Origin: Trypanosoma brucei
Taxonomy: Eukaryota
NCBI GenBank assembly: GCA_000002445.1
Contig: CM000207.1
Location: 2,560,001 to 2,624,000 of the forward strand
Direction of reading: 5' to 3'
Length of the DNA stretch: 64,000 bases
The notes beneath the pieces were generated by a model. That model searched no databases and had not been told where the DNA came from. It worked only from the letters and a program-made list of their open reading frames with translations. This document shows, piece after piece, positions 4,638 through 52,476 of this stretch. A program made the translations under genes and the position numbers. Each line of letters starts with the position of its first letter. Position 1 is the stretch's first letter.

Positions 4638-4800
4638 TTGTGAGTGTGCATATACGAATATTATAATAAGAGCTGTAATAATAGTAATAATAATAATAAT
4701 GATAATGATAGATAATAATAATAATAAGAAAGTGTTGTGAGTGTGTGTATACGAATATTATAATAAGACAAGTAATAAAAAACATAATAAGAAAAGCAAT
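4631..4800 (+). repeat. VSG 70-bp repeat, about 2 units
   Basis: gagtgtgttgtgagtgtgcatatacgaatattataataagag followed by (TAA)n/(TGA)n runs, twice. Confidence 0.85.
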
Positions 4801-10833: not shown

Positions 10834-10849
10834 TGATATATTTTGACAC
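10834..10849 (+). promoter_or_regulatory. VSG 3'UTR 16-mer variant
   Basis: tgatatattttgacac. Confidence 0.8.
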
Positions 10850-11699: not shown

Positions 11700-12190
11700 A
11701 AATCCGGCAGCAGATGTAAAGCACCTTAATGCAGGGCTCCATAATCACCACGGGTATAAATTCACCGCAAAAACCAAGCAACAAGCCAACAGTAGAGGAA
11801 CAGAATAAATGTAAAACTCCAGCAAACAAAACAGCAGACGGGTGTGCGGCTATTGAATATGACTATGACTATGATGAAACTTACAAAGAATGCAAACCTA
11901 AATCAGGAAAAGAAAACACATCAACAGGAACAGGGGAGACAAGTACCGGGGTAGACTGCAGTAAACACCAAACCAAGCAAGCCTGTGAAGCTGAAAACAA
12001 GGATGTAAAACCTGGTCAGAAAGCAGTATCTGGATGTATTGAAGATAAGTGTAAAGATTTATTTTTTCTCGTCAGTAAGAATTTTGCTCTGATGGCTGCT
12101 TCTTTTGTGAGCTTGGTACTATTCAAGGATTTTGAATTTTTAAATTTGTTATTTAGAGAGAATTTGATATATTTCAACACCTCTAGATGA
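11700..12190 (+). pseudogene. VSG C-terminal-domain fragment (5'-truncated)
   Basis: ORF 11729..12190 reads ...CKPKSGKENTSTGTGETSTGVDCSKHQTKQACEAENKDVKPGQKAVSGCIEDKCKDLFFLVSKNFALMAASFVSLVLF. The 16-mer follows at 12165. There is no N-terminal domain or signal peptide. Confidence 0.65.
12165..12180 (+). promoter_or_regulatory. VSG 3'UTR 16-mer variant
   Basis: tgatatatttcaacac. Confidence 0.75.
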
Positions 12191-31100: not shown

Positions 31101-33388
31101 GTGCGCTGATGACCCTGACGATGTCAAAAGGGAGGCTTCCGAAAAGTGGATTGAACGGCATTTTTCACGGAGGGGGAAGGAGCTACCGCGGCGAGAGCAC
31201 TACGAATTGTGGACTGATGGATCCGTGTCCCTCGGTGAGAAGTCCGGAGCAGCTGCCCTGCTCTATAGAAACAATACGCTTATTTGTGCACCTAAAACCG
31301 GAGCAGGGGAACTCTCATGCAGTTACAGAGCGGAATGCGTAGCATTAGAGATAGAACTGCAACGGCTGCTGAAATGGCTTCCGGCATACAGAAGCACACC
31401 TAGCAGGTTGTCCATCTTCTCTGACTCGCTGTCAATGTTAACAGCACTGCGGACAGGCCCCCTAGCCGTAACGGACCCAATTCTAAGACGACTATGGAGG
31501 CTTCTGCTTCAAGTTCAGAGAAGGAAGATACGTATCCGACTTCAATTTGTGTTTGGCCATTGTGGCGTGAAACGGAATGAAGTTTGTGATGAGATGGCCA
31601 AAAAGGCCGCTGATTTACCACAGTTGCGAGACACATGGATCCCCGACATCATTGCTTATGCGAAGCGAGTGCTTAAGTCGGAAGAAGTCCATGAGAACAC
31701 TCATAGGTTTGGTATCACGGGCAACCACTTTCCAACAAAGCATAAAGAAGAACTGACGAGGGAAGAAGAAACGGCACTGGCACGCTTTCGGGTTGGGTCT
31801 TCAAGGCACTATGGATGGATGTTGCGAAAGATTAACCCGAGTGTGCCTCCACAGTGCCGATGGTGTAACCCGCAACATGCAGCGATAGGACCAACAATAC
31901 AAACAGCCCCAACTGTTGCGACACGCACTCTTCAAAGAACCTCCGAACCGACCAAATGTACGGAATGTGATGCCACATACCAATGCCGCTCGAGTACTGT
32001 AACGCACATGGTAAACAAACATGGCTTTGTGCGAGCTGATGCCCTCCGGAGGATCAAATACGGCGATGCAACACCTGCAGTGGATATCCCCCCGGAGCCC
32101 CCTCCAGTGGTGGCGATCGTTCCTCTACCATCGAGCACACGAGTCCCGATGAGACCGCAGGTACTTCATTGTACCATCTGTGCCTCCAAATTCGCAGTGC
32201 CAGGCCGACTATTACACCACCTTAGAACAATACATGGTATAGGCAGCGGTAGTTGCCGCGTGAAAAGGGGGCGAGAGAACGAGGACTCAGTGCAAGGAGA
32301 TGGTAGAGCCCCAGCAGCGCCAGTCTCTCAGGATACACGGAAGCTGCCGTTTCAATGTGACCTGTGCGAGGCGAGCTTCGGTACACGCTCTTCCCTGTCA
32401 CTACACAAGAAATTCAAACATAAGAGCATAGTGACGGAGGACGGTACCGTAGTGGTGGTGCAATTCCCTCGTAAGCGTGCCCGTGAGGGAAACGTTGACG
32501 CCACTGGGAAAGGAGAGGTGCAGTGTGGTGTGTGTCAAAAAGTGCTCAGTTGCAGGGACTCCCTCATCCGACATTGTAAGGCTTTTCACAAAGGTGAGGG
32601 AGTCGAGCTTAAATGCAGCAAAAGCACAAAATTTTGTGCCACTGATTCCCCGCATACAAACACATCCATGTTGGTGTGCCCGACATGCGGAAGGCAGTGT
32701 GCTAGCAAAACTGGCCTCACCCTACATCAAAATAAGATGCACGGTATGAAGGTAGAGCGCGCTGTTACCAGCCAACGCGGCGACTGCGAAGAAACGTCGC
32801 TGCACTTGATGAGCTGCCCCGGTTTGAAGGAGTTACGTGTCAGGTTTGCGGTAGAAGGTGAGTGTGTGCAGGATGTATGTTTCTCTAAAAGGCTGGCGCA
32901 GTTTCTCATTGCGGTTGAACGGAACCTGCCGCAGGTGAAGTCCTCACCTAAGGTAACAGTCATACAACCCACTCTCCCTTCTGCAACTTCCCCCCTTATT
33001 GCCGAGTGTGGAGCTAGCAGGAAAAGCACCGGACGCAGGAATAGTCCAGACACCCTCAGAGACAGAGAGGGTATGCAGTCAACAAGCAACAGGAACAGAA
33101 AGAGGGGGAGAGAATAATAAACGAATAACAAAAATCAAAACAAAAGGATTGCTAATTGACATCTTTTGGAGAGTCCGGAGTGGGAGGCTTCTCGCCCCAT
33201 CTGCTGTATTCCGTTCAACTGCGGAGCTACAACAAAAATTATAGAGGGTGTATTAGGCCGAAAAAAAAAGGGAGACTCTGCCACAGTCGCCAGACCGATA
33301 GCATCTCAGGGCTCTACGGTGATGGCTGATGGCCGCGCCAGTGGGGGGAAACTCTCACGAAGGCACGAAGAAAATTCAAGAAAAAAAT
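28135..33388 (+). mobile_element. ingi, full length (about 5.25 kb)
   Basis: The 5' end ccctggtgatgctggtcacatcaacgtggtgccagg... is the RIME/ingi 5' terminus. There is a single long ORF. The 3' end is ...cacgaaggcacgaagaaaattcaagaaaaaaa. No TSD is detectable. Confidence 0.9.
28360..33117 (+). CDS. ingi polyprotein ORF, uninterrupted 1585 aa: 2A-like leader, AP-endonuclease, reverse transcriptase, RNase H, four C2H2 zinc fingers
   Basis: MLLSGDVEENPGP (2A-like D-x-E-x-NPGP). Endonuclease-like WNCAGL...LSETRM. RT motifs FRPGCSTLEQLL, FVDYEKAFDTVDHD and FADDLTLLA. RNase H motif WTDGSVSLGEKSGAAA. Fingers HCTICASKF...HHLRTIH, FQCDLCEASF...HKKFKH, VQCGVCQKVL...RHCKAFH and CPTCGRQC...LHQNKMH. Confidence 0.9.
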   Translation: MLLSGDVEENPGPSLRGMQWNCAGLSQGKRLALHKTLVDERIAFCLLSETRMTPGEAAFFSVAGYQHHGIARNCKGGGVSILMREDLPVETGMAVVGRIERVHATIHPARGTALTVTSAYIPPKHTFTATDLDTLLTTDGAQLIGADANAHALAWDRASPPNTKGETLTQWCIDNQFLVCNTGECTRYTRHHGESTPDVTLSRNFTVYTWTSLYSPDSDHHNIFFDVIVGDDTDALSCPRLRKPMYAWLKANWRNFRLKVDELCRKIGREKNVNTLEQKLSSAIRTATNVSVPRGCRATPPHWTPALAKIDEEIAGCAPSHRREKLVATRKQILDRTTKKRWSTLCSRLAVSDCCSWHIVKKVYAPRPLTTLAVLVDNAAITDYHQAERFSKLYSSRARRHPDSHPPAPIKTIASEFSPITMAELWRSIKLLPTGSAAGPDCLYNEAIQHLGRTALNVVLRLFNESLRTGVVPRAWKTGVIIPILKAGKKAEDLDSYRTVTLTSCLCKVMERIIAARLRDTVESQLTPQQSGFRPGCSTLEQLLHVRAALCRPTHQYRTGAVFVDYEKAFDTVDHDKIARGMHRMKVSPHIVKWCVSFLSNRTGRVRFKEKLSRSRTFERGVPQGTVLGPIMFIIVMNSLSQRLAEVPLLQHGFFADDLTLLARHTERDVINHALQCGLNVVLQWSKEYFMSVNVAKTKCTLFGCIERHPLTLQLDGERIGADRIPKLLGVTFQCQQGMATHAAETRRKMDFRLLQIVSISASTWGPRRQVLRAFYLALVQAHTMYGIKVWYWDASERSRDLLASAQHKASRIIAGIPHGTRKEDSLLEANLLPLKTATLVHSMKFMLMCESRGGCLRRSAEEAYHSKHPVRAQHSRIMRSYPHLRIEPREHPLETPTLRHSCRPLFHTQIKPVCADDPDDVKREASEKWIERHFSRRGKELPRREHYELWTDGSVSLGEKSGAAALLYRNNTLICAPKTGAGELSCSYRAECVALEIELQRLLKWLPAYRSTPSRLSIFSDSLSMLTALRTGPLAVTDPILRRLWRLLLQVQRRKIRIRLQFVFGHCGVKRNEVCDEMAKKAADLPQLRDTWIPDIIAYAKRVLKSEEVHENTHRFGITGNHFPTKHKEELTREEETALARFRVGSSRHYGWMLRKINPSVPPQCRWCNPQHAAIGPTIQTAPTVATRTLQRTSEPTKCTECDATYQCRSSTVTHMVNKHGFVRADALRRIKYGDATPAVDIPPEPPPVVAIVPLPSSTRVPMRPQVLHCTICASKFAVPGRLLHHLRTIHGIGSGSCRVKRGRENEDSVQGDGRAPAAPVSQDTRKLPFQCDLCEASFGTRSSLSLHKKFKHKSIVTEDGTVVVVQFPRKRAREGNVDATGKGEVQCGVCQKVLSCRDSLIRHCKAFHKGEGVELKCSKSTKFCATDSPHTNTSMLVCPTCGRQCASKTGLTLHQNKMHGMKVERAVTSQRGDCEETSLHLMSCPGLKELRVRFAVEGECVQDVCFSKRLAQFLIAVERNLPQVKSSPKVTVIQPTLPSATSPLIAECGASRKSTGRRNSPDTLRDREGMQSTSNRNRKRGRE

Positions 33389-34399: not shown

Positions 34400-37300
34400 C
34401 GCCTGCTCCCTGAATGTTGACGAAAGTGCAGTGCAGCCCGAAGTCTGCCGCATCCTTCTCTTGCAGAGTGACTTCTCTGCGGCGTAAAGAAAGCAGCGCC
34501 GCCGTAATGGTCGTTGCTAAAAAGCTTCGTGCATTGTCGTTGCTATTTGGTAGTTGAACCGGGTTCTGCCGCTTATGTTGTGAAGGTTGCTTGTGGTCTC
34601 TGCTGTCACTCACTCGGTATAGGTTTTTAAAATCCGAAAAATTGGAAGAAATATGGCTTCCATAATTCGTATATTGCGTCGGCAAAAAACATTTGGTCTG
34701 GTGGGAGAGATAGCACTTTATTCAACAATTCACCTTTTTCTTCTTTTTATATTTAAAATATCTGTTTTTTTTAACGGTCTCCGCGAGTGACTCTGAAAGT
34801 GTCTGCTAAAGTTATGGTGCATGTGCCGCCTGCGCTGTTCGGTCATCTATGGATTGCATTGGTGCACAAAACTCGCTTTCAAAATCCATGCAGAGTACAT
34901 GTTGATCCCTTATCTGCTCTGCTTCCCTTGGGAACTTATTTGTGAACCTGGCTCTGTTGTGCCTTGCGTATGGTTGAAAACTTCGCCTATTCACTACGTG
35001 TCATGGTATAGTGGATTGTAGGCTAGTTGTTAAAACTGCTTTGTTTTTTCCTTCTTTGGTTCTTGTTGTCCGATATGGTCTGTTTTTTGTGGCTGTTTGT
35101 GGTTTTCTATCTGGTTGCATCTCCTCTTCTTGCAGGTTGAGCTGGTATTTAAATTCCCCTCATGTGCTTGTACCATTATTGGTTAGCATTATCAGCGTCA
35201 TTAATTTCGGCGTTTGCTATTCTACCGCTGAAAAGCCGTTGTATCCTCGGAGTTTTTCAGAGTGATAAGAGCCAACACTGTTTAAGCTGGCGACAGCGTA
35301 CAGAGTTCTCTTTTGCTCTGATCATTGCTTTCTCTTCCTCTTGACATTTTTGTGCTAGTAATTTGCTTCAAGAGAACGAAAGGTGGCGTGCGAGGTTGAT
35401 TTTGGATATCATTTGTTGGTCCTCAACGGTTGAAAAAAAGGAGCACGTACCACTGCTGTATTTTATGCTATGACGATATAAAATGCAAGCAGTTACACTA
35501 CATTGTTTGCAGTTTATAATTCCGATCCATATTGACCTATATTTGTATCGAAAAAAGATTTAAATTTATTGTGTTTTCTCTACTCTATCAGCTTCAAAAA
35601 TGCGTGACAGCTTTTGACTCAAAATAAAAAATAATGCTTTTTGTTTCTCAAGAACTTGAGTGGCCTTTTGGTTTTTTCCTGAGTTGTACGCGACAGTATT
35701 TAAGCTCCCTTTTAAGTTTAAGTAATTTAGTCCACAAAGCTGCATTTGCTTTATTGATTTGCACCATTAGTTTTGCGTCAGAAATAACGCTTAAATTAAT
35801 TAATCGCTCTCTGAAAATTTTTAGTGTCTGTCCAGTATACCCACATGGAACTGTTGTTGTTTTATGACAAATTTTTTTACTTCATAAACCTCTTACAACG
35901 GCACATAAATACTACACATTAACAATTTTCGCTTTTTTATTTTTATTTTGATGTCTTTAAAAATTTTAAAATAACATTTTCCTTAAAATTTTTCTTGATA
36001 ACATCATATTGTTACCCACGAATATCTTCGACTGTTAGTATATCCAATGACAAGAAAAACTTCAAAATAACATCAAACTTACCTAATCCCTTCTGCCATA
36101 TTCTTTTGTTTCTGAACATTTTTATTTACAGCTGGATGTTTGGATCCACTATAAGATCAAAAAATACAGTTTACACCATCTTTGGCTTTTTCTATCCTTT
36201 TTCAGTTAAATATGGAGCAAAATCTCCACCTGCGTAATTTGCTTCTTTTATGTGCTGTTGCGCATGTCTTAGCTTCATGCTGTACTTACTTTCCTCTTTT
36301 TTGTTTTCTGTTGCTTTTGCGTGTAGTGTACCGCCTTTATTTTGTTTGCGAGGTCTTCCACTTTGTCATTTCTCTGGAAACCGCAATGCAAAAACACAAA
36401 CTGAAACGACATGGATACTCTCAGTTTCATGAAGTGTATGATCAGATCCTAAATGCGTCGTAGCATGGTATCTGTCACTTCTGTAGGATCCGTTTTAAGT
36501 GCCATTAATAAAGATAACATGTCTGTAAATATTGCCACTTTCGTTTTTATGCTCTCGTTGATCTTTATTACTGTTTTGAGTTTCATAAGTCCTGCATCCA
36601 TGGCTACACACTCGGCTCTGTAGCTTCATGCTAACCTGACTGCTCCTTTTTTCACTTTTACCGCATTACCTTGTCAAGGATGTATTATCGCGGCGGCACC
36701 AGAGGGTTCGTCCAGTATCACTGACCCATCTGTCCACACTTGGTAATTGTAGTCTTTGAGTTTACGTAACTTTTGAATTGTGTGTCTTTTCTCGCTGTCG
36801 GAGGCATCAGAATGGAGACCATCTGGTGCTGTAGTGTTGAGGTATGGTCTCCTCGCCAGTTGCAATGCGCTTGCCGTGTGTGGTTCCTCCGGTTCGTCTA
36901 CTTCCTCATACAAGTATGACACATTCTCCAGGAGCGTGCATATCATATGACTAGGTGGGAAGATTCTTTCCACTGTGTCGGATGATGCCTTACTATTCGC
37001 CTTCCTTGTTCAATAGTATTATATTGCTCGTCTATGAGTAATATAATCTATCTGGTGAAGGAGGGCCTCCTTTATGACAACATGCCTGCTCGCTTACGTT
37101 GGAACACCCGCAATAACATGTGCCTCCTGCGCTTGCACTCGTTCAAGCTGCTTTTTGTCTGATTGAAAGGCATTGAACCACCATGCCGCAATACCATAGC
37201 ATAATTTTTCCTGGATTAAGGCTAAAAAAAAATGCTCTAACACTTTCTTTACTCGCTCCCTATTCAGGTGATGCAACAGCCCTTAGTTTCATTAATCTCA

Positions 37301-39797
37301 TAGTTGCTGCTGTTTGCAGGGTGTGAGCATTTTTTCTTACTCAGTCCTTTGTTTGGCTGCATTGTCACCCCAAGGAGTCTGTGGTTTCTTGTCTAATTTA
37401 ATCTGCGCTCTCCTAGAAATAAGTGTAGTGAGTCGCGGTCTCTCACCACAAAGAACATGTATTCCGCTTTTTCTGAAGACACATCCATACAGTCCTCTCC
37501 TAACCAGCTCACTATACAATACATCCCTGTTTGTACCGTCTGCCGAATAGCTTCCTGGTCAGTTTTAGAGCGTACTATCGTGAGGCCGTTTGCGAAGAAG
37601 CAGTATTTAAGGACTGTCATGGCATTTAGTTTCGCACTGAGAGAGTCCATTGCGATAATGAATAGCAACAGCCCCAACACGGAACATTGTGGAACACCAC
37701 ACGTGAGTTATATTTTCTTTGAGAGGGATGTTGTTTATTCGTACTACTTTAGTCCGTCCCTCAAGGAAATTTGCAACCCATGCAATAAAGTGCATGCCTA
37801 TCTCATATCTTTTTAGTGCATCCATTATGCACCCGTGATACACAGAGTCAAATGCCCTCGCATAATCTGTGAATACCGCTGCAGCTGTTTCTCCTGCTAT
37901 TCTATGTGTCACGAAGTCTGTGAGTGCCATCAGGGCCTCTAACTTAGACCTCCCTGGACGAAAAGCGGATTTCTGTAGTTGCGCCTTACATTCTACCGTG
38001 TCTCGTATGCGTCTCGCTACAATCCTTTCTATTAGCTTACAGAGAGTGCTATTGAGCGTGATGAGCCGGAATGATGACATACACTTGGCAGGTTTGTTGT
38101 TCTTGAGTAGTGGGACGATAACTCCATGCTTCCATTTCTCCGACACCCGGTTTCTCTGTAGGCTACAGTTGAATTGCTTGAGGACACGTTTCTTGCTACA
38201 GCGTCCTAATTGCTTCAACCATTCACAATGTATATTGTCCTTACCGGAGCAAGTGCCTGAAGAGAGTTCCTTCAGTTCTGTCTCAAGTTTTGCAATCGTT
38301 ATTAGTGCGAATTCTCCACTCACTCGTTAACGTGTACTCATGTGAAGAGCATCTGGTGCTTTTGTCGACCTCTCTCGATACATCTGTGCTAGTTTATTAA
38401 CTTGCTGTCTACATGTTAAAATGTGGTCGTTTACTACCAGAACCGGAGATGTCAGTGGATTCGATGCGTCAATGGACTTAACTAAATTCCAACTTTTTGT
38501 ATCGGTCACTGACATATTTGACACATTTTTCTTCCACCGTTGTAGGGATTTTTCAGCGAGAACCTTCCTTCTCTTGTATATAAGGGAACCTCTCTGTGCT
38601 TTTAACTTGTATATTCTTTTATTGTTGTGTCAATACGGTCAGTTCTCGTGTCCAAAACGGTGGCGATTCTTCCTTACCTTTCTGTGTTTTTTCTTTGTTG
38701 CTGTGCGAATGCCTTTAGCCACAGCCTCATTCATAGGATCCACATTCTTTCTTGATTTCCTTAATTTTTACACCATTGTTACACTATACACTTTTCTAAA
38801 CTTCCGTCAATTTGCTTTGTTGCAAACATAAAACACCTTTAGTGGCTTTGTAATGGCGATAATTTCTACACCAATCCCAGTACACACCTCGAACGGTTAT
38901 CCGGTAGTGGTGACTATCTGGACTGAGTTTTATCTCCCATCTTGTGACTTCGCAGTCTCTGTACATCGTAACGTCGGGAGACGACCTGGTTTCCATGTGA
39001 GCCGTTCTTCTCGTTGGTGTTCCATCATTTGCAATTTTGATATCATTTTGTATACATCAGTCTACAATGCATTCTCCTGCTGTATTATTGGGGCGAAGCG
39101 GGTCCCATAAGTTATGATGTGCGTTGGTATCGAATCCTATTATTAGTGATACAGTTCAACTTTGAAGGCTTTCAAGCGTGGAGTTAGTGACATTTTTGTT
39201 CTGTGGGAAGTAAGCTGATTTGACAGTTAAAGTTGTATCAGATGAGGACATCAGTGTTGCCGAGACTCTTTCCGGCTGTCTTTCCGTCCTACGGACATTG
39301 GATGACTCCCACGCCATCTTTGATTATAATGGAAACATTGCAAAAATGTGGAGAGCGTGCCATTTCCATGTGTTTGTATCCACTAATTTTCAATGCGCAG
39401 TATTCTTTTGCTGCCAAGTGAGTCTCCTGCAATAAACAAAAAAATACCATATCCTCGTGGAGCTTCTTCTCAAGGCCATTCGCTTCACCTTGGAGCAACC
39501 CCCAGAATTCCACTGGAATGCACAAATCATGGGACAGGGATCCTGTTCCATATCTCCGTTAAGAAGTAGTAGAAGCCGATGTATCTCAACTAAGGCACGC
39601 CTGCACATGCAAAGGAGCAATCTAATATATTTATTCACTCCAGAGTGCCGATGCTGCTACTTTCTCCTTTTTTGGTCGCTGAAAGCCTGTTACCAGCCCC
39701 AATCCTGTTGAACTATGTATAATGCGTGCACTTGGCTTCATCCTGGACGAAGTAATAGACCCTGGAACTACGATGAGGTGGCCGACGTCACCAGCGA
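34400..39797 (-). mobile_element. Degenerate ingi-related element (DIRE); 3' boundary uncertain
   Basis: On the minus strand the 5' end at about 39797, cgctggtgacgtcggccacctcatcgtagttccagggtc..., is homologous to the ingi/RIME 5' terminus. Fragmented ORFs follow in ingi order: a degenerate 2A-like LLLNGDMEQDPCP (39390..39638); endonuclease-like CLLQETHL...YKHMEMARSPHF; RT (37393..38323: FRPGRSKLEALMAL, VFTDYARAFDSVYHG, FFANGLTIV); and RNase H (36674..36973: WTDGSVILDEPSGAAAIIHP, then SYRAECVAM near 36610). The stops and frameshifts are numerous. Confidence 0.7.
36610..39638 (-). pseudogene. DIRE EN/RT/RNase H ORF remnants
   Basis: Minus ORFs 39390..39638, 39289..39525, 38796..38996, 37607..38323, 37393..37680, 37094..37276 and 36674..36973 each align to successive parts of the ingi ORF. 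Confidence 0.7.
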
Positions 39798-42266: not shown

Positions 42267-42283
42267 AGTGTTAAAATATATTA
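42267..42283 (-). promoter_or_regulatory. VSG 3'UTR 16-mer variant (minus)
   Basis: Reverse complement of gtgttaaaatatatt = aatatattttaacac. Confidence 0.7.
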
Positions 42284-42361: not shown

Positions 42362-43852
42362 TTAGAAGCTTTTTATTATAGAAGCAAAAATTCCAGTCAA
42401 AGAGGGTCCTTTACTAGAACAGATTTGCTTCCTGTGGTGTTTGAGTTTGTGCTTGTTTTTGTTGTTGTTGTTTGTGAAGAGTATTTTCGCATTTGCTCTC
42501 TCCGTCATTATATTTGCACCCAAGTTTCTTGTTGCAAGAATCTTTTTCTTCACCTGTGCACTCCTCTTCCTTTACTTGGTTTTGGGGTGTCGCTTTAGTT
42601 GCTTTTTCTGCTCTCTTCGCCGCTTCACCTGAAAAATAGGCCAAGGTTAGGGCGTATTTTTCTGTTTCCACGGCCTCTTTAACGCTTGTTTCCACTGTTG
42701 TGTCGCCTCTTGTAAACTTTATGTTTCTGTCGTCCACTCCTATGAAAAAACATCCTTTAGTTGTTTACCTGTGCCACCAAGTATCTGTTGGACTTTCTTT
42801 TTGCGTTCACCAGCGTCTTGTTTTAGGGTAGTAACATCCGTTGTTGTTGTGAGAAGTATCGTCTGTATGTCGTTGTCGCTGGCGAGCTCATCCACTGTTT
42901 CGTCCTGTAGTGTCTTCACTTTGGGGGACGAGCCCCGTTTTAGTGTACAGATTGCATTGGCTATCGCCTCGGCTGTTGTTAAGAAGTGGTCGCTGTTATT
43001 GTCTGCGGCTACACAGCTTGCGCCGTCTAAGAGTTTGATGTCCACTGGTTGTAGGGTTTGCTTGTGCAGGGCCGCTGATGCAAACGCTACACCGTTGCTA
43101 ACGCTTGCTGCTTGTGCATTGTCGCCGCAGCCGGCCTTGCTGTTGTGCTGTGCCTTGCTGCCTGCTGGCGTTCCTTTGTGCTAGACTTCTATTTTGAGGT
43201 CGGGGAACGCGAAGTCAGTGATGGGCGTCAGTTTCACTTTGGTTATCTTGGCCAGGTCTGTTGCTGCGGCTGTTAGCTTATTTTTTGAGGCAGTTGTTAC
43301 TTCGCATCGTTTGGTTGGAGTCGCTGCCAGTTTCGCCCGCGCCTGGCACTTGCCAGTACCGGTCGTAAAGTATTTGTTGCTGTCGTGCTCTTTGGCTTTC
43401 GACTCCGAGAATTTTGCCGTCTCTGTCGCGCCCATCCGCTGTAGCGCGGCGATGTTTCGTTGCCTTTTTGCCAACAGCGCCACGGCTGCGCCGAGCGTCT
43501 GTTGATGCTTATTGATGTCTTTTAGGACCGCCGCAGCTCGCTGGCTTGCTAGCGAAGCGAGGACTCCAGCTAGTATTGACCTCATGCCTGGCGAGGATTT
43601 TGCCGCCGTTAGTGTTAGCATTCGTTGTTCTTTTGAAAGCTCGCTAGCCCTCGTAATCAGGTCGTTCTCTACTTGTCTGTAGTGTTTTCTCACCGCCTCT
43701 AACCACTCGCCTTCGTCGCACGGAGTTTGGATGGCGTCCACTTTTTCGTCGGAGTCCGCTGCAGTCGCAGTTGCCAGCAGTAGTGCCATCAACAACGCTG
43801 GTGTGAGACCGAGTGTTTGTCGGCGTGAAAATAATACCTTAGTCTTTAACAT
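42362..43852 (-). pseudogene. VSG pseudogene with an intact N-terminal ORF and a frameshifted C-terminal domain
   Basis: Minus ORF 43181..43852 starts MLKTKVLFSRRQTLGLTPALLMALLLATATAADS... (signal peptide). C-terminal ORFs 42740..43045 and 42414..42737 read ...EECTGEEKDSCNKKLGCKYNDGESKCEN. A degenerate GPI-signal frame ...CSSKGPSLTGIFASIIKSF* ends at 42362. Confidence 0.7.
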
Positions 43853-44038
43853 TGATTTCTGAGTTGTCTTTCCTTGTCCGGTAGTTTGTCAAGGTGGAGG
43901 AAATTAGCGGTATTTGATTTCTTGGGCTGCATCTAGTTTGTGGTGCTAATTTATTATGGTTGTAGCTGTGTGAAGATAGCTTTCCGTTCAGACACACGCT
44001 AGTTTAAATTCTCTGGTTGGTTTTTTCTGCGGGTTATC

Positions 44039-44050
44039 TTTGTTTGAAGC
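44039..44050. repeat. 12-bp target-site duplication, left copy (TTTGTTTGAAGC)
   Basis: It is identical to 49309-49320, immediately after the ingi poly(A). Confidence 0.85.
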
Positions 44051-47000
44051 CCCTGGCGATGCCGGCCACCTCAACGTGGTGCCATGGTCCAGTACCCCGT
44101 ATCATCGGGGGAAGCCAAGAGCCAGCAACGTTCCTCTCATGGGGAACACTGCTGTGCTCCGGCTACGGCATCATACAGCACAGGGATCAGCAGCGTCTTG
44201 CTGGGACACCGTTTTTCATTTGTCGGTCCCTGGGCACGTGCCAGCGTGCCATCAGCAGTATCATCCGCACTAAGATGCTGCTGTCCGGTGATGTGGAAGA
44301 GAATCCCGGCCCGTCGTTGCGCGGGATGCAGTGGAACTGCGCCGGGCTATCTCAAGGAAAGAGATTAGCACTCCACAAAACCCTTGTTGATGAGCGGATC
44401 GCCTTTTGTCTGTTGAGCGAGACAAGGATGACGCCTGGAGAGGCGGCTTGCTTTAGCGTTGCTGGCTACCAACATCACGGAATAGCTCGTAACTGCAAAG
44501 GAGGTGGTGTATCAATACTAGTGAGGGAGGACCTACCAGTCGAGACCGGTATGGCCGTTATTGGTCGCATTGAACAAGTGCATGCAACAATTCACCTTGC
44601 ACGTGGAACGGCGCTGACTGTCACGTCGGCATACATCCCACCAAAACACACCTTCACGGCAACTGACCTAGATACGCTTCTGACGACTGACGGTGCCCAG
44701 CTCATCGGTGCAGACGCTAACGCACACGCGTTGGCATGGGATCGCGCGAGCCCACCAAATACCAAGGGTGAAACCCTCACACAGTGGTGCATTGACAACC
44801 AGTTTCTGGTATGTAACACTGGTGGGTGCACCAGGTACGCGCGCCACCACGGGGAGTCCACCCCTGATGTGACGCTGTCAAGGAATTGCACAGTGTACAC
44901 GTGGACATCGCTGTATTCTCCCGATAGCGATCACCATAACATATTTTTCGACGTTATCGTTGGAGACGACACAGATGCACTGAGTTGCACGCGGCCTCGA
45001 ATGCCCATGTACGCATGGCTAAAAGCTAACTGGAGGAATTTCCGTCTCAAGGTTGACGAGCTCTGCAGGAAAATTGGTAGAGAGAAGAACGTCAACACCC
45101 TGGAACAGAAATTGAGCTCCGCCATCCGCATTGCGACGAAGGTCTCCGTCCCCCGTGGCTGCAGAGCAACGCCACCACATTGGACACCTGAGCTCGCGAA
45201 ACTCGATGAAGAGATCGCTGGATGCGGACCCTCCCACCGAAGGGAAAAGTTGGTAGCCACGCGTAAGCAGATCCTGGACCGTACCACAAAGAAGAGATGG
45301 AGCACGCTATGCTCCAGACTTGCGGTGTCAGACCGCTGCAGTTGGCACATGGTCAAGAAGGTATATGCGCCACGACCACTAACAACACCGGCTGTACTTG
45401 TAGATAACGCGGCCATCACGGACTACCGTCAAGCTGAGAGGTTCAGTAAACTGTACTCGTCCCGTGCAAGAAGGCACCCCGACTCACACCCACCGGCACC
45501 AATAAAGACGATAGCGAGTGAGTTCAGTCCCATCACGATGGCTGAACTACGGAGATCGATCAAACTGCTACCGAGTGGATCCGCAGCCGGACCTGATTGC
45601 TTATACAACGAGGCACTGCAACATCTCGGCAGAACAGCGCTGAATGTTGTTCTGAGGCTATTCAATGAGAGCCTACGAACGGGAGTCGTGCCGCCTGCAT
45701 GGAAGACTGGTGTTATCATCCCCATCCTGAAGGCCGGAAAAAAGGCGGAGGACCTCGATTCTTACAGGACTGTGACGCTCACGAGCTGTCTCTGCAAAGT
45801 CATGGAACGCATAATTGCCGCGAGGCTTAGAGACACTGTTGAGTCCCAGCTGACGCCGCAGCAATCAGGCTTTCGCCCCGGATGCTCAACGCTCGAACAA
45901 CTCCTGCACGTCCGCGCTGCCCTCTGCCGTCCCACGCACCAATCTCGTACGGGTGCTGTATTCGTTGACTACGAGAAGGCATTTGATACAGTAGACCACG
46001 ACAAAATTGCGAGGGAAATGCACAGAATGAAGGTATCACCCTACATTGTGAAGTGGTGCGTATCATTTCTGAGTAACCGAACTGGCAGAGTGAGATTCAA
46101 GGAGAAGCTTTCCAGAAGCAGAACATTTGAGCGAGGAGTGCCACAAGGAACTGTCCTTGGCCCAATCATGTTCATTATTGTCATGAACTCGTTGAGCCAA
46201 CGCCTTGCAGAAGTGCCGTTACTGCAGCACGGATTCTTTGCAGACGACCTAACGCTACTTGCGAGGCACACAGAGAGGGATGTCATCAACCACACACTAC
46301 AATGCGGTCTAAACGTGGTGTTACAGTGGTCAAAAGAGTACTTCATGTCTGTCAACGTAGCGAAAACAAAGTGCACACTCTTCGGGTGTATAGAGCGCCA
46401 CCCCCTTACATTGCAACTGGACGGCGAAAGAATAGGAGCTGACAGGATACCGAAGCTTCTAGGAGTAACATTCCAGTGTCAGCAGGGGATGGCAACACAT
46501 GCGGCCGAAACGAGACGCAAGATGGACTTCCGACTACTGCAGATAGTGTCCATCTCAGCTTCTACATGGGGGCCAAGACGACAAGTACTGAGAGCTTTTT
46601 ATCTAGCACTCGTACAGGCACACACCATGTATGGCATTGAGGTATGGTACTGGGACGCTTCGGAACGGAGTCGCGACCTCCTCTCAGCAGCACAACACAA
46701 AGCCAGTCGCATCATAGCCGGCATACCGCATGGGACGCGCAAAGAGGACTCTCTGCTGGAAGCAAACCTCCTGCCACTCAAGACGACCACTCTTGTGCGC
46801 AGCATGAAATTCATGCTGATGTGTGAGTCACGAGGCGGATGTTTGCGGCGCAGTGCTGAAGAAGTATACCACAGCAAACACCCAGTCAGAGCCCAACATT
46901 CCCGCATCATGCGGTCCTACCCCCACCTCCGCATTGAGCCACGCGAGCACCCACTAGAGACATCGACGCTCCGCCACAGCTGCCGACCGATATTTCACAC

Positions 47001-49308
47001 GCAGATAAAGCCTGTGTGCGCTGATGACCCTGACGATGTCAAAAGGGAGGCTTCCGAAAAGTGGATTGAACGACATTTTGCACGGAGGGGGAAGGAGCTA
47101 CCGCGGCGAGAGCACTACGAATTGTGGACTGATGGATCCGTGTCCCTCGGTGAGAAGTCCGGAGCAGCTGCCCTGCTCTACAGAAACAACACGCTGATTT
47201 GCGCACCTAAGACAGGAGCAGGGGAACTCTCATGCAGTTACAGAGCGGAATGCGTAGCATTAGAGATAGAACTGCAACGGCTGCTGAAATGGCTTCCGGC
47301 ATACAGAAGCACACCTAGCAGGTTGTCCATCTTCTCTGACTCGCTGTCAATGTTAACAGCACTGCAGACAGGCCCCCTAGCCGTAACGGACCCAATTCTA
47401 AGACGACTATGGAGGCTTCTGCTTCAAGTTCAGAGAAGGAAGATACGTATCCGACTGCAATTTGTGTTTGGCCATTGTGGCGTGAAACGGAATGAAGTTT
47501 GTGATGAGATGGCCAAAAAGGCCGCAGATTTACCACAGTTGCGAGACACATGGATCCCCGACATCATTGCTTATGCGAAGCGAGTGCTTAAGTCGGAAGA
47601 AGTCCATGAGAACACTCATAGGTTTGGTATCACGGGCAACCACTTTCCAACAAAACATAAGGAAGAACTGACGAGGGAAGAAGAAACGGCACTGGCACGC
47701 TTTCGGGTTGGGTCTTCAAGACACTATGGATGGATGTTGCGAAAGATCAACCCGAGTGTGCCTCCACAGTGCCGATGGTGCAACCCGCAACATGCAGAGA
47801 TAGGGCCAACAATACAAACAGCCCCAACTGTTGCGACACGCACTCTTCAAAGAACCTCCGAACCGACAAAATGTACGGAATGTGATGCCACATACCAATG
47901 CCGCTCGAGTGCTGTAACGCATATGGTAAACAAACATGGCTTTGTGCGAGCTGATGCCCTCCGGAGGATCAAATACGGCGATGCAACACCTGCAGTGGAT
48001 ATCCCCCCGGAGCCCCCTCCAGTGGTGGCGATCGTTCCTCTACCATCGAGCACACGAGTCCCGATGAGACCGCAGGTGCTTCATTGTACCATCTGTGCCT
48101 CCAAATTCGCAGTGCCAGGCCGACTACTACACCACCTTAGAACAATACATGGCATAGGCAGCGGTAGTTGCCGCGTGAAAAGGGGGCGAGAGAACGAGGA
48201 CTCAGTGCAAGGAGATGGTAGAGCCCCAGCAGCGCCAGCCTCTCAGGATACACGGAAGCTGCCGTTTCAATGTGACCTGTGCGAGGCGAGCTTCGGTACA
48301 CGCTCTTCCCTGTCACTACACAAGAAATTCAAACATAAAAGCATAGTGATGGAGGACGGTACCGTGGTGTTGGTGCAATTCCCTCGTAAGCGTGCCCGTG
48401 AGGGAAACGTTGACGTCCCGGGGAAGGGCGAGGTGCAGTGCGGTGTGTGCCAAAAAGTGCTCAGTTGCAGGGACTCCCTCATCCGACACTGCAAGGCTTT
48501 TCACAAAGGTGAGGGAGTCGAGCTTAAATGCAGCAAAAGCACAAAATTTTGTGCCACTGATTCCCCGCATACAAACACATCCATGTTGGTGTGCCCGACA
48601 TGCGGAAGGCAGTGTGCTAGCAAAACTGGCCTCACCCTACATCAAAAGAAGATGCACGGTATGAAGGTAGAGCGCGCTGTTACCAGCCAACGCGGCGACT
48701 GCGAAGAAACGTCGCTGCACTTGATGAGCTGTCCCGGTTTGAAGGAGTTACGTGTCAGGTTTGCGGTAGAAGGTGAGTGTGTGCAGGATGTATGCTTCTC
48801 CAAAAGGCTGGCGCAGTTTCTCATTGCGGTTGAACGGAGCCGGCCGCATGTGAAGTCCTCACCTAAGGTAACAGTCATACAACCCACTCTCCCTTCTGCA
48901 ACTTCCCCCCTTATTGCCGAGTGTGGAGCTAGCAGGAAAAGCATCGGACGCAGGAATAGTCCAGACACCCTTAGAGACAGAGGAGGTATGCTGTCAACAA
49001 GCAACAGAAACAGAAAGAGGAGAAGAGAATAATAAACGAATAACAAAAATAAAAACAAAAGGATTGCTAATTGACATCTTTTGGAGAGTCCGGGGTGAAG
49101 GGATTCTCGCCCCATCTGCTGTATTCCGTTCAACTGCGGAGCTACAACAAAAATTATAGAGAGTGTGTGTGTTAGGATGAATGAAAAAGGGAGACTCTGC
49201 CACAGTCGCCAGACCGATAGCATCTCAGGGCTCTACGGTGATGGCTGATGGCCGCGCCAGTGGGTGGAAACTCTCACGAAGGCACGAAGAAAATTCTAAA
49301 AAAAAAAA
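44051..49308 (+). mobile_element. ingi, full length, flanked by a perfect 12-bp TSD
   Basis: The 5' end is ccctggcgatgccggccacctcaacgtggtgcc. The 3' end is ...cacgaaggcacgaagaaaattctaaaaaaaaaaa. It has one uninterrupted ORF and is about 97-98% identical to the copy at 28135. Confidence 0.92.
44275..49032 (+). CDS. ingi polyprotein ORF (2A-like, EN, RT, RNase H, 4x C2H2)
   Basis: It starts MLLSGDVEENPGP at 44275 and reads through to the stop at 49032. In this copy the frame is also open upstream to 44017 because the in-frame stop seen in copy 2 (tggctagc) is absent (tgccagc). The start at the conserved ATG is inferred. Confidence 0.88.
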   Translation: MLLSGDVEENPGPSLRGMQWNCAGLSQGKRLALHKTLVDERIAFCLLSETRMTPGEAACFSVAGYQHHGIARNCKGGGVSILVREDLPVETGMAVIGRIEQVHATIHLARGTALTVTSAYIPPKHTFTATDLDTLLTTDGAQLIGADANAHALAWDRASPPNTKGETLTQWCIDNQFLVCNTGGCTRYARHHGESTPDVTLSRNCTVYTWTSLYSPDSDHHNIFFDVIVGDDTDALSCTRPRMPMYAWLKANWRNFRLKVDELCRKIGREKNVNTLEQKLSSAIRIATKVSVPRGCRATPPHWTPELAKLDEEIAGCGPSHRREKLVATRKQILDRTTKKRWSTLCSRLAVSDRCSWHMVKKVYAPRPLTTPAVLVDNAAITDYRQAERFSKLYSSRARRHPDSHPPAPIKTIASEFSPITMAELRRSIKLLPSGSAAGPDCLYNEALQHLGRTALNVVLRLFNESLRTGVVPPAWKTGVIIPILKAGKKAEDLDSYRTVTLTSCLCKVMERIIAARLRDTVESQLTPQQSGFRPGCSTLEQLLHVRAALCRPTHQSRTGAVFVDYEKAFDTVDHDKIAREMHRMKVSPYIVKWCVSFLSNRTGRVRFKEKLSRSRTFERGVPQGTVLGPIMFIIVMNSLSQRLAEVPLLQHGFFADDLTLLARHTERDVINHTLQCGLNVVLQWSKEYFMSVNVAKTKCTLFGCIERHPLTLQLDGERIGADRIPKLLGVTFQCQQGMATHAAETRRKMDFRLLQIVSISASTWGPRRQVLRAFYLALVQAHTMYGIEVWYWDASERSRDLLSAAQHKASRIIAGIPHGTRKEDSLLEANLLPLKTTTLVRSMKFMLMCESRGGCLRRSAEEVYHSKHPVRAQHSRIMRSYPHLRIEPREHPLETSTLRHSCRPIFHTQIKPVCADDPDDVKREASEKWIERHFARRGKELPRREHYELWTDGSVSLGEKSGAAALLYRNNTLICAPKTGAGELSCSYRAECVALEIELQRLLKWLPAYRSTPSRLSIFSDSLSMLTALQTGPLAVTDPILRRLWRLLLQVQRRKIRIRLQFVFGHCGVKRNEVCDEMAKKAADLPQLRDTWIPDIIAYAKRVLKSEEVHENTHRFGITGNHFPTKHKEELTREEETALARFRVGSSRHYGWMLRKINPSVPPQCRWCNPQHAEIGPTIQTAPTVATRTLQRTSEPTKCTECDATYQCRSSAVTHMVNKHGFVRADALRRIKYGDATPAVDIPPEPPPVVAIVPLPSSTRVPMRPQVLHCTICASKFAVPGRLLHHLRTIHGIGSGSCRVKRGRENEDSVQGDGRAPAAPASQDTRKLPFQCDLCEASFGTRSSLSLHKKFKHKSIVMEDGTVVLVQFPRKRAREGNVDVPGKGEVQCGVCQKVLSCRDSLIRHCKAFHKGEGVELKCSKSTKFCATDSPHTNTSMLVCPTCGRQCASKTGLTLHQKKMHGMKVERAVTSQRGDCEETSLHLMSCPGLKELRVRFAVEGECVQDVCFSKRLAQFLIAVERSRPHVKSSPKVTVIQPTLPSATSPLIAECGASRKSIGRRNSPDTLRDRGGMLSTSNRNRKRRRE

Positions 49309-49320
49309 TTTGTTTGAAGC
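49309..49320. repeat. 12-bp target-site duplication, right copy (TTTGTTTGAAGC)
   Basis: Matches 44039-44050. Confidence 0.85.
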
Positions 49321-50654: not shown

Positions 50655-50735
50655 TCATTACTATTACTGCTCTTATTATAATATTAGTATATATACACTC
50701 ACAACACTCTCCTATTATTATTATTTAATAAAGAA
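50655..50735 (-). repeat. VSG 70-bp repeat (minus orientation), about 1 unit
   Basis: Reverse complement of ...ctcttattataatattagtatatatacactcacaacactctc... The adjacent flank 50570-50595 (ctttctcaccctcacatcaattcac) is the reverse complement of the flank next to the repeat at 12470-12500. Confidence 0.8.
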
Positions 50736-50850
50736 AATAAAATAAATTAGAATAGCACACATTTTTCACACACTATTATCCTACTACTTTACACCCATAT
50801 GCCACGTTCATACACATGTTACTAAGAGTCGCACACTTCAATAATAGAGG

Positions 50851-50866
50851 GTTGAAATATATCAAC
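50851..50866 (-). promoter_or_regulatory. VSG 3'UTR 16-mer variant (minus)
   Basis: Reverse complement of gttgaaatatatca = tgatatatttcaac. Confidence 0.7.
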
Positions 50867-50946: not shown

Positions 50947-52476
50947 CTACAAATCCACAAAATCAGAAACAATCGGGGCGAATTGTTTTTTTAGGAGAAA
51001 ACTGGAGTCTTTGCATTCTGTTCCTTCCCATTTGCAGCCATCTTTGCAATCTTTCTCTGGTTTCCCTTTGCATTTTTCTGTTGTTGCCTCTCCTGTTCTT
51101 GCTTTTCCGGTTGTTCCTTCTACAGCCTTCGGTTTGCATTCGCTCTTGACTTTATCATAATTGCACTCTGCGCCTGTGCAACCGCTTTCATTGCCGTTGA
51201 ACGTTTCGCATAGTCTCGGACCCGCCGTTGTTATGCTCGGCTGTGCTGGTGCTATGCCCGGCTGTGTTGCTGCTGTTAGTGTACCTGCTGGTGCGATGGC
51301 AACTTGTTTGAATATTGCTTCAACTTGCCTTCGCATTGACGTTATTTGACGCTGCGTCGTATCTCGGTGAGCCTTCGCTTGTTCTGCTGCGTTAAGCTTG
51401 TCCACCGCTTCCTGCAGCTTTTGTTCCCACCCTATTTCTGTTGCCGATGCTTCGCTTGTTGAAGCAGTGGCCTTTGTCAGGTCTATGCAGGCGGTGCCGG
51501 CGTGATCTTTGCAGGTGTTGTCGTCGGTTTTGGTTCCTAGGATGACGGCCCTCCCACCGGCGTTGCCCACGTCCCTGTAGAGCCTCTTCAGCGCTGCCAG
51601 TCTCTTCGTTATCGCTTCGGCTGTTAGTTTGATCTGCTTGTTTTTCTTGCAGATGGAATCGTATGTTGCGTAGTGAGTTTTCATGTTTCCTGAGCTCCAA
51701 TCCGAGAGGTTTGGCGTTGAAGAGTCGCCGCATATATCTTTGCTTTGTGTTGACCCTTTGGCACATATACAGACTAGCGCTCCGCAGATGGCCTCGCCAG
51801 CTTTTGGTAGTTCGCAGGTTTTTTGCCGGCTGGTGTCTACTTTGACGTTGCACTTGTGGTTGCTTTGCGCCGGAACGGGGTCGACGTTATACGCCGCCTT
51901 GTTAAGTAGGGTGGTTACGGCTGCTTTAAGACCAGTTACATGTGCTTTGTGGTTGGTCTCCCAGTTTTTTTTGAGTTTCTCTGCTTCCTCCAGCAGGCTT
52001 GCAACTTGTAACGCGGCTGATCTACCGTAGCTTGAAGTTAACTTGACTTCTTCGAGTTTCAGCTTGTCTGGTCGTATATTGTTGTCTTTTGCTTTCACTT
52101 TCGCAGTTTCCCACTTTTTCCAGTGGCTTTTGCATGGGTCTGTCGCCGCTTTTCCTTTGCAGGGGACTGGTTCATCAGTTGGTTTGGAAGCGTCATCCGA
52201 GAATTGCTTGCTCCAGTTAGGATCTGCTAGTGTCATGTTTAACGCCTCCATTATGGTAAGGTCATTTGTATCTATTTCCTCGTCGCTTAGAGCACTCATA
52301 TCTGCTTCTGTTAGTTTTATGAACTCGCACAGAGCGGTCAACTCCGCGGCGTTTTTGCTTTGGTCCGGGCCGGCTGCCTCGCAACGCATAGCGCTGCAAA
52401 CGAGGGCTATAAAAATAAGCATTGAGGGTGCTAGTCTTCGAGTCATCGTTTGCTGTATCGGAGTGTTTATTCGCAT
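50947..52476 (-). CDS. VSG, intact 509-aa ORF with an atypical extreme C-terminus
   Basis: The probable start is MTRRLAPSMLIFIALVCSAMRCEAA. The C-terminal domain ...CKGKPEKDCKDGCKWEGTECKDSSFLLKKQFAPIVSDFVDL* has a short tail with charged residues where a hydrophobic GPI signal is expected. Confidence 0.75.
   Translation of the reverse strand: MRINTPIQQTMTRRLAPSMLIFIALVCSAMRCEAAGPDQSKNAAELTALCEFIKLTEADMSALSDEEIDTNDLTIMEALNMTLADPNWSKQFSDDASKPTDEPVPCKGKAATDPCKSHWKKWETAKVKAKDNNIRPDKLKLEEVKLTSSYGRSAALQVASLLEEAEKLKKNWETNHKAHVTGLKAAVTTLLNKAAYNVDPVPAQSNHKCNVKVDTSRQKTCELPKAGEAICGALVCICAKGSTQSKDICGDSSTPNLSDWSSGNMKTHYATYDSICKKNKQIKLTAEAITKRLAALKRLYRDVGNAGGRAVILGTKTDDNTCKDHAGTACIDLTKATASTSEASATEIGWEQKLQEAVDKLNAAEQAKAHRDTTQRQITSMRRQVEAIFKQVAIAPAGTLTAATQPGIAPAQPSITTAGPRLCETFNGNESGCTGAECNYDKVKSECKPKAVEGTTGKARTGEATTEKCKGKPEKDCKDGCKWEGTECKDSSFLLKKQFAPIVSDFVDL

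What the first reader, a model, noticed from the sequence alone, without database searches (positions are those of the whole stretch)
44039..49320. Recent-looking ingi insertion with a perfect 12-bp TSD between a 70-bp repeat and its VSG on the opposite strand
TTTGTTTGAAGC flanks the element exactly at the 5' end and after the poly(A). The 1671/1585-aa ORF has no stops. On the minus strand the element sits within the roughly 1.5 kb region between the 70-bp repeat (50655-50735) and the VSG pseudogene start (43852). It therefore splits a VSG cassette's upstream homology block from its coding region, which would be expected to hamper 70-bp-repeat-initiated gene conversion of that VSG.
Basis: partly seen in the sequence, partly recalled or inferred. 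Interest (0 to 1): 0.55.

Follow-up and report, generated by a model that had tools for sequence, protein, structure and literature searches.

The report
Intact ingi retrotransposon in VSG cassette
This is a textbook full-length ingi retrotransposon of Trypanosoma brucei, still able to encode its enzyme, inserted 187 bases upstream of a dead surface-antigen (VSG) gene; it is a known kind of element in a known kind of place, and probably harmless there.

Summary
A 5,258-bp ingi non-LTR retrotransposon lies on the + strand at 44051-49308. It starts with the Pr77 signature and ends in A11. It is flanked by an exact 12-bp duplication, TTTGTTTGAAGC, and 12 bp is the canonical ingi TSD length. The target matches the published ingi4 endonuclease signature at 7 of 10 positions (P about 0.005). 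The real ORF is 1,657 aa, from the ATG at 44059. The 1,671-aa figure starts in flanking DNA. The ORF has no stops and keeps the 2A motif and the APE, RT, RNase H and C2H2 domains with their catalytic residues. Its private substitutions are mostly synonymous, so the copy has decayed little since insertion. On the minus strand it does sit between a 70-bp repeat (50655-50735) and a VSG pseudogene (ATG 43852). The restored spacing of 1.53 kb is typical for this window. The functional reading is weak. The VSG is a pseudogene, and pseudogenes donate by segmental conversion inside the coding sequence. Lister 427 expression site BES2 carries an ingi in the same position and can still be activated. "Recent" is plausible but unproven, because no empty-site allele could be searched: the collections hold no T. 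brucei subtelomeres. The finding is ordinary and of a known kind.

The parts
44017..44038 (+). 22 bp upstream of the TSD: the endonuclease recognition region of the target site
   Evidence: Together with the TSD it matches the published ingi4 signature AxxxxxxxTxxxGTxGGxTxxx^xTxTxxTxxxxx (PMC3820030) at 7 of 10 specified positions. Only 0.54% of window positions score that well.
44039..44050 (+). 5' target-site duplication TTTGTTTGAAGC
   Evidence: Exact match; one of only two exact copies in the window.
44051..49308 (+). Full-length ingi non-LTR retrotransposon (5,258 bp)
   Evidence: It is 97.2% identical over its full length to a second ingi at 28135-33387. It is 96.9% identical to a third at 3-4641.
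44051..44129 (+). Pr77 / '79-bp signature' at the 5' end
   Evidence: 75% identical to the published L1Tc Pr77 oligonucleotide. The literature gives 76.6% for ingi/RIME (PMC1874656; alignment).
44059..49032 (+). Single long ORF of 1,657 aa with no internal stop
   Evidence: Pfam finds Exo_endo_phos_2/Exo_endo_phos, RVT_1, RNase_H and zf-C2H2_4. All 103 columns invariant among ingi-clade relatives are retained.
44290..44313 (+). 2A-like ribosome-skipping motif DVEENPGP (aa 78-85)
   Evidence: Read from the translation. 2A activity of T. brucei Ingi is reported in PMC3708506.
44326..44943 (+). AP-endonuclease domain (aa 90-295)
   Evidence: Pfam PF03372 and PF14529. Conserved N93, E121, D219/N221/H223, D270 and D291/H292 are present.
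45745..46470 (+). Reverse transcriptase domain (aa 563-804) with FADD at aa 727-730
   Evidence: Pfam RVT_1, E = 8.8e-44. FADD motif found.
47113..47526 (+). RNase H domain (aa 1019-1156)
   Evidence: Pfam PF00075, E = 3e-9. D1025, E1064, D1094 and D1149 are invariant.
48265..48336 (+). C2H2 zinc finger (aa 1403-1426)
   Evidence: Pfam zf-C2H2_4, E = 1.2e-5, just under the curated cutoff (26.0 vs 27 bits).
49298..49308 (+). Poly(A) tail, 11 A
49309..49320 (+). 3' target-site duplication TTTGTTTGAAGC
50655..50735 (-). Single 70-bp repeat unit upstream (on the minus strand) of the interrupted cassette
42390..43852 (-). VSG pseudogene: a 223-aa ORF, then two in-frame stops and a frameshift
   Evidence: Three-frame translation. 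It is 70% identical to T. brucei VSG 1125.5528 (P0002, E = 2.4e-109) and 71-72% to P0001. Its stops fall where the homologue has E and Q. Pfam itself finds no VSG domain.
42268..42283 (-). Conserved VSG 3'-UTR 16-mer (TAATATATTTTAACAC, 1 mismatch)
   Evidence: 12 such sites in the window against 0.05 expected by chance.
50947..52476 (-). Intact upstream neighbour VSG (B-type). The probable true start is M19 at 52422.
   Evidence: Pfam VSG_B plus Trypan_glycop_C. It is 97% identical to Lister 427 VSG 533.

Best explanation
A full-length, coding-competent Tbingi (ingi4 subclade, non-LTR retrotransposon) inserted by target-primed reverse transcription into the non-coding spacer of a silent subtelomeric VSG cassette of Trypanosoma brucei. 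The insertion lies 187 bp upstream of the VSG start codon, measured to the nearer edge of the 12-bp target, and in antisense orientation to the array. The inferred steps are as follows. The element's AP-endonuclease recognised a target resembling its preferred motif. It nicked the two strands 12 bp apart. The RT primed on the nick from the poly(A) end of the ingi RNA and copied it to its very 5' end. Repair then duplicated the 12 bp. The sequence shows the complete termini, the A-tail, the exact 12-bp TSD, the motif match, the intact 1,657-aa ORF with catalytic residues, and the selection signature. The timing of the event and the present activity of the copy are inferred. The insertion most likely has little or no consequence for antigenic variation, because the downstream VSG is a pseudogene that can contribute only by segmental conversion.
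For: The TSD is exact and unique. The termini and tail are complete. The length of 5,258 bp agrees with the published 5.25 kb (PMC2323293). A 12-bp TSD is the conserved size for Tbingi/TbRIME (PMC3820030). The ingi4 target signature is matched at 7 of 10 positions, P = 0.0054. Pr77 is 75% identical to L1Tc Pr77. The domains are APE, RT, RNase H and C2H2. The 2A motif is present. All invariant ingi-clade residues are kept. Private substitutions are 42 synonymous, 31 non-synonymous and 0 stops, against a neutral expectation of 21.5, 49.2 and 2.3; none of 3,000 simulations reached 42 synonymous. The cassette context is established. An ingi in the same relative position exists in an activatable expression site (PMC2567434). 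Presence/absence polymorphism of ingi between T. brucei subspecies is documented (PMC2854126).
Against: No reference Tbingi sequence or T. brucei ingi protein could be retrieved for direct comparison. The protein search returned only T. vivax and T. congolense relatives at 39-42% identity. The copy carries the most private substitutions of the three ingi in the window (77 of 4,637 sites), so it is not conspicuously young by divergence. The target motif match is partial: the T of 'GT' and one T inside the TSD are missing. Rfam finds no HDV-like ribozyme in the 5' end. No empty-site allele was available.
Confidence: 0.9

Rival explanations
1. The insertion is old and fixed and only looks young. 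Its ORF and termini have been kept intact by gene conversion from other ingi copies, or by chance, and the TSD is simply too short to have been hit by mutation.
For: The copy differs by 2.8-3.1% from the neighbouring copies and has the longest private branch of the three. Zero changes in 24 bp of TSD are compatible with several percent divergence. Ingi and RIME are known to recombine (PMC2854126). The window itself holds two rearranged ingi.
Against: The private substitutions are strongly biased towards synonymous and third-position changes, with no stops or indels. This pattern is expected if they arose in an active lineage before insertion. In-situ neutral decay at 1.7% would give about 2.3 stops (P(0 stops) = 0.09) and about 70% non-synonymous changes.
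Confidence: 0.25
2. The element did not insert here. An ingi-containing cassette, with the TSD already in place, was copied to this position by segmental duplication or gene conversion within the VSG archive.
For: VSG arrays evolve by duplication and conversion. The neighbouring VSG shows a clustered patch of differences from Lister 427 VSG 533, typical of segmental conversion.
Against: The flanks on both sides of the insertion are unique within the 64-kb window. No paralogous filled or empty site was seen. This rival still requires an original TPRT event at the same sequence.
Confidence: 0.1
3. One reading: by moving the 70-bp repeat from 1.5 to 6.8 kb from the VSG, the ingi lowers the chance that this VSG is copied into an expression site. 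It thereby shapes the archive's usage hierarchy.
For: 70-bp repeats provide the upstream homology for most duplicative conversions and broaden donor choice (PMC4858185, PMC8612549, PMC12137147). A longer tract has to be copied.
Against: The VSG is a pseudogene, so whole-gene conversion would be non-productive anyway. Pseudogenes donate by segmental conversion inside the coding sequence. BES2 of Lister 427 has an ingi 3' of the 70-bp repeat and is activatable. Break-induced replication copies much longer tracts.
Confidence: 0.08
4. The 12-bp flanking repeat is a coincidence, and the element's position was produced by recombination.
For: None beyond the generally T-rich context. There are three 1-mismatch copies elsewhere in the window.
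Against: There are only two exact copies, each precisely at an element terminus. The length equals the canonical 12 bp. The chance of this is about 7e-8. The target motif is also matched.
Confidence: 0.001

Closest known systems
Tbingi (ingi4 subclade of the ingi/L1Tc clade of APE-type non-LTR retrotransposons), Trypanosoma brucei
   Same: It shares the length of about 5.25 kb and the Pr77 5' signature. It shares the A-tail, the 12-bp TSD and the upstream target signature. It also shares the single ORF with 2A, APE, RT, RNase H and C2H2, and the T. brucei subtelomeric context.
   Different: Nothing material was found. The only departures are an incomplete (7/10) match to the target consensus and about 3% divergence from the two other copies in the window.
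The ingi element 3' of the 70-bp repeats in Lister 427 bloodstream expression site BES2 (VSG 427-9 / VO2) (PMC2567434)
   Same: An ingi lies between the 70-bp repeat and the VSG.
   Different: That case is in a telomeric, transcribable expression site with a functional VSG. This one is in a silent array cassette with a pseudogene and a single repeat unit. The orientation of the BES2 ingi was not checked.
L1Tc of Trypanosoma cruzi
   Same: It shares the Pr77 (75% identity), the 2A motif, the domain order and the 12-bp TSD.
   Different: It belongs to a different subclade (ingi6) with a different target signature, TTTTxxxxxA^A (PMC3820030). Outside Pr77 the nucleotide sequence is unrelated.
TbRIME
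   Same: It has the same termini, TSD and target preference, and it is mobilised by ingi proteins.
   Different: RIME is 0.5 kb and non-coding. This element is the full autonomous form.

Membership tests
Tbingi (ingi4 subclade non-LTR retrotransposon) | Length about 5.25 kb | tested here: met
   5,258 bp between the TSDs. The published figure is 5.25 kb (PMC2323293).
Tbingi (ingi4 subclade non-LTR retrotransposon) | 77-79-bp Pr77 signature at the extreme 5' end | tested here: met
   60 of 80 aligned columns (75%) are identical to the published L1Tc Pr77. The literature value for ingi/RIME is 76.6%.
Tbingi (ingi4 subclade non-LTR retrotransposon) | 3' A-rich tail | tested here: met
   A11 at 49298-49308.
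Tbingi (ingi4 subclade non-LTR retrotransposon) | 12-bp target-site duplication | tested here: met
   Exact 12/12 match that cannot be extended. The 12-bp size is stated in PMC3820030.
Tbingi (ingi4 subclade non-LTR retrotransposon) | Conserved ingi4 motif upstream of and within the TSD | tested here: inconclusive
   7 of 10 consensus positions match; the window-wide P for 7 or more is 0.0054. The match is clearly enriched but not complete. How real insertions score is not known here.
Tbingi (ingi4 subclade non-LTR retrotransposon) | Single long ORF encoding APE, RT, RNase H and a C2H2 finger | tested here: met
   1,657 aa with no stops. The Pfam domains are in that order. The catalytic residues are kept. 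My recollection that the canonical ingi protein is 1,657 aa could not be confirmed in the paper library.
Tbingi (ingi4 subclade non-LTR retrotransposon) | N-terminal 2A-like D(V/I)ExNPGP motif immediately before the APE domain | tested here: met
   DVEENPGP at aa 78-85. Reported for Ingi in PMC3708506.
Tbingi (ingi4 subclade non-LTR retrotransposon) | High nucleotide identity to a reference Tbingi sequence | not testable with these tools
   No T. brucei ingi DNA or protein could be retrieved. Only within-window copies were available, at 96.9-97.2%.
Tbingi (ingi4 subclade non-LTR retrotransposon) | Retrotransposition competence | not testable with these tools
   This needs an experimental assay or polymorphism data.
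Silent VSG array cassette (T. brucei) | 70-bp repeat 0.7-1.8 kb upstream of the VSG start | tested here: met
   The repeat lies at 50655-50735 (-). The restored distance is 1,533 bp. Other cassettes in the window measure 0.69-1.77 kb.
Silent VSG array cassette (T. brucei) | VSG N-terminal domain homology | tested here: met
   70% identity to VSG 1125.5528, E = 2.4e-109. The Pfam VSG models do not detect it, so the identification rests on the homologue.
Silent VSG array cassette (T. brucei) | Conserved 3'-UTR 16-mer TGATATATTTTAACAC | tested here: met
   Found at 42268-42283 (-) with 1 mismatch.
Silent VSG array cassette (T. brucei) | Intact VSG ORF (functional gene as opposed to pseudogene) | tested here: not met
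   Two in-frame stops lie where the homologue has E and Q, and there is a frameshift before the C-terminal domain. It is therefore a pseudogene.

The most novel reading that the evidence does not exclude
This copy is one of the few currently retrotransposition-competent master ingi of its strain. Its insertion is a strain-private polymorphism. Ingi insertions between the 70-bp repeat and the VSG measurably change which archive cassettes can be mobilised as whole units. Retrotransposons would then actively sculpt the VSG activation hierarchy.
Probability: 0.07. Interest if true: 0.5.

Novelty: already known. Interest (0 to 1): 0.15.

Why it matters
It matters little beyond annotation. It is a clean, well-bounded example of a coding-competent ingi, and such copies are a minority among ingi. 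It would be a reasonable candidate if someone wanted a natural template for an ingi retrotransposition assay. It could also serve as a presence/absence marker for strain typing. It does not open a new question about antigenic variation, for two reasons: the interrupted VSG is already a pseudogene, and an ingi in the same position is tolerated in a working expression site.

Tried and rejected
1. Empty-site search. Six window-encoded proteins had no exact match on record. They were the neighbouring VSG with either start, the 223-aa pseudogene ORF, another window VSG, and the ingi protein with either start. The closest database homologues P0003 and P0001 also had no encoding contig on record.
2. 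Exact-pattern scans. I scanned with the 3' flank, the 5' flank and the ingi 5' end against the genome and metagenome collections. All found nothing. These collections are prokaryote- and metagenome-centred, so the negatives say nothing about T. brucei isolates.
3. Paralogous empty site. A search within the window found none; the flanks are unique.
4. Pfam on the VSG pseudogene. Neither the ORF pieces nor the read-through gave a VSG hit. Identity had to come from the homologue search.
5. Other window VSGs. tblastn of these against the pseudogene region showed no similarity.
6. Rfam scan of the element, looking for the HDV-like ribozyme reported in Pr77. No match at E <= 1.
7. Homologue search with the ingi protein. 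It returned no T. brucei entry, so comparison with a 'known active ingi' was not possible.
8. Literature. The 2004 MBE paper on ingi site preference and the 2009 Eukaryotic Cell paper are not held. The 1,657-aa figure could not be confirmed by text search.
9. Chance TSD. Considered and rejected.

Full report
**Observation**

The dodecamer TTTGTTTGAAGC occurs exactly twice in the 64-kb window, at 44039-44050 and 49309-49320. The first copy is followed directly by CCCTGGCGATGCCGGCCACC..., and the second is preceded directly by an A11 run at 49298-49308. The bases outside the two copies differ, so the duplication is exactly 12 bp. A 12/12 match at two fixed positions has a chance of about 7e-8, calculated from base composition. 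The enclosed element is 5,258 bp long.

**What the element is**

- Pfam on the long ORF finds an AP-type endonuclease, RVT_1 (E = 8.8e-44), RNase H and a C2H2 finger, in that order.
- The mechanically listed 1,671-aa ORF starts at a TTG in the flanking DNA (44017). The in-frame ATG at 44059, the ninth base of the element, gives 1,657 aa without a stop.
- The 1,585-aa figure corresponds to the ATG at 44275, which lies five codons before the 2A-like motif DVEENPGP (aa 78-85). 2A recoding activity has been reported for T. brucei Ingi (PMC3708506).
- The first 79 bases are 75% identical to the published L1Tc Pr77 sequence. The literature gives 76.6% for ingi/RIME (PMC1874656).
- The length agrees with the published 5.25 kb (PMC2323293). 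The 12-bp TSD is the conserved size for Tbingi/TbRIME (PMC3820030).
- The 22 bp upstream plus the TSD match the published ingi4 target signature AxxxxxxxTxxxGTxGGxTxxx^xTxTxxTxxxxx at 7 of 10 specified positions. Only 0.54% of positions in the window score that well.
- Together these features identify a full-length Tbingi inserted by target-primed reverse transcription at this very sequence.
- No reference T. brucei ingi could be fetched. The protein search returned only T. vivax and T. congolense relatives at 39-42% identity. Family assignment therefore rests on the features above, not on identity to a reference.

**Coding integrity and age**

- The window holds two more ingi on the + strand: 3-4641, cut by the window edge, and 28135-33387. 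They are 96.9% and 97.2% identical to this copy. There is also an inverted 3' fragment at 27077-28134.
- In a three-way alignment this copy has 77 private substitutions in 4,637 columns and no private indels.
- Of the 73 private substitutions inside the ORF, 42 are synonymous, 31 non-synonymous and none creates a stop; 45 fall at third codon positions.
- Random substitution with the same transition bias would give 21.5, 49.2 and 2.3 respectively. None of 3,000 simulations reached 42 synonymous changes.
- Most of this copy's distinctness therefore arose while its lineage was under selection for a working protein, that is, before insertion. In-situ decay has been slight, at most about 1% if every non-synonymous change is assigned to it.
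- All 103 alignment columns invariant among ingi-clade relatives are retained. They include the APE residues, FADD at 727-730 and the RNase H residues D1025, E1064, D1094 and D1149.
- By contrast, copy 1 is broken into three ORFs. Copy 2 has a stop and a frameshift in the pre-2A region.
- "Coding-competent and little decayed" is thus shown. "Recent" in the population sense is inferred only. A perfect 24 bp of TSD has almost no dating power, and no other isolate could be examined.

**Context**

- The window is a T. brucei subtelomeric VSG archive. VSG genes and pseudogenes lie on the + strand up to about 27 kb and on the - strand from about 42 kb. Twelve copies of the VSG 3'-UTR 16-mer are present, against 0.05 expected. 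70-bp repeats occur in the matching orientation.
- On the minus strand the order is as follows:
  - an intact B-type VSG (52476/52422 to 50947; 97% identical to Lister 427 VSG 533);
  - its 16-mer (50849-50864);
  - one 70-bp repeat unit (50735-50655);
  - 1.33 kb of unique spacer;
  - the antisense ingi;
  - 187 bp further, from the nearer edge of the TSD, the ATG at 43852 of an A-type VSG.
- That A-type VSG is 70% identical to VSG 1125.5528 (E = 2.4e-109). It carries two in-frame stops where its homologue has E and Q, plus a frameshift before the C-terminal domain. Its own 16-mer is at 42268-42283.
- Removing the element and one TSD restores a repeat-to-ATG distance of 1,533 bp. This lies inside the 0.69-1.77 kb range of the other cassettes in the window.

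**Function**

The proposal that the insertion hampers 70-bp-repeat-initiated conversion is not supported, for four reasons.

- The VSG is a pseudogene, so copying it whole would not give a usable coat.
- Recent single-cell work shows that array pseudogenes are used as donors by segmental conversion within the coding sequence. That route is preferred over resection to the 70-bp repeats (PMC12137147).
- Expression site BES2 of Lister 427 (VSG 427-9) has an "ingi element 3' of 70-bp repeat" and could be activated in vitro (PMC2567434). The arrangement is both known and tolerated.
- The active site's 70-bp repeats are also not strictly required for conversion (PMC4858185).

Some quantitative penalty on whole-cassette conversion cannot be excluded, but it has no obvious phenotypic consequence here.

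**What could not be done**

The decisive empty-site test failed for lack of data. Exact protein look-ups and exact DNA scans of the genome and metagenome collections found nothing. Those collections do not hold T. brucei subtelomeres, so the negatives are uninformative. The flanks are unique within the window. Presence/absence polymorphism of ingi between T. b. brucei and T. b. gambiense is documented elsewhere (PMC2854126), so a polymorphic state is plausible.

**Verdict**

The structural interpretation is confirmed. "Recent" is plausible but unproven, and the functional consequence is unlikely. This is a canonical member of a well-described family in a well-described setting. Novelty is "already known" and interest is low. 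It remains a clean candidate for an active ingi copy.

Noticed in passing
window 1-4764: A second ingi (3-4641, + strand, ORF broken into three pieces) lacks its last ~136 bp. It is fused directly to a 70-bp repeat block (4629-4764) inside a shared GAGAGTGT microhomology. The ingi 3' region contains a GT-rich stretch resembling the core of the 70-bp repeat. This looks like a microhomology-mediated recombination joint.
   Followed up: partly
window 27077-33387: A third ingi (28135-33387, + strand, 97.2% identical) has no TSD. Its 5' end abuts, head to head, an inverted 1.06-kb ingi 3' fragment (27077-28134, - strand). The pair sits exactly where the + strand VSG array meets the - strand array. 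Its 1,585-aa ORF from the pre-2A ATG is intact, but the region upstream of 2A has a stop and a frameshift.
   Followed up: partly
window 36341-39656 (- strand): A degenerate ingi-related element (DIRE-like) is present. It has 31-37% amino-acid identity to the ingi protein across the APE, RT and RNase H regions, in several frames, with an RVT_1 hit in the ORF at 37607-38323.
   Followed up: partly
window 50947-52476 (- strand): The intact B-type VSG differs from Lister 427 VSG 533 at 14 of 491 residues. Ten of these are clustered in aa 139-174, a pattern typical of a short segmental gene-conversion patch. The database protein starts at M19 of the window ORF, which suggests that the true start is at 52422.
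   Followed up: partly
window 11729-12190 (+ strand): A short ORF with a VSG 3'-UTR 16-mer at 12165-12180 follows closely after the complete VSG at 9286-10797, which has its own 16-mer at 10834. It may be an orphan VSG C-terminal or 3' fragment.
   Followed up: no
window 5574-6890 and 20727-21716 (+ strand): Two long ORFs in VSG-cassette positions lie between a 70-bp repeat and a 16-mer but get no Pfam VSG hit, as is also the case for the pseudogene studied here. The Pfam VSG models evidently miss a share of A-type N-terminal domains.
   Followed up: no
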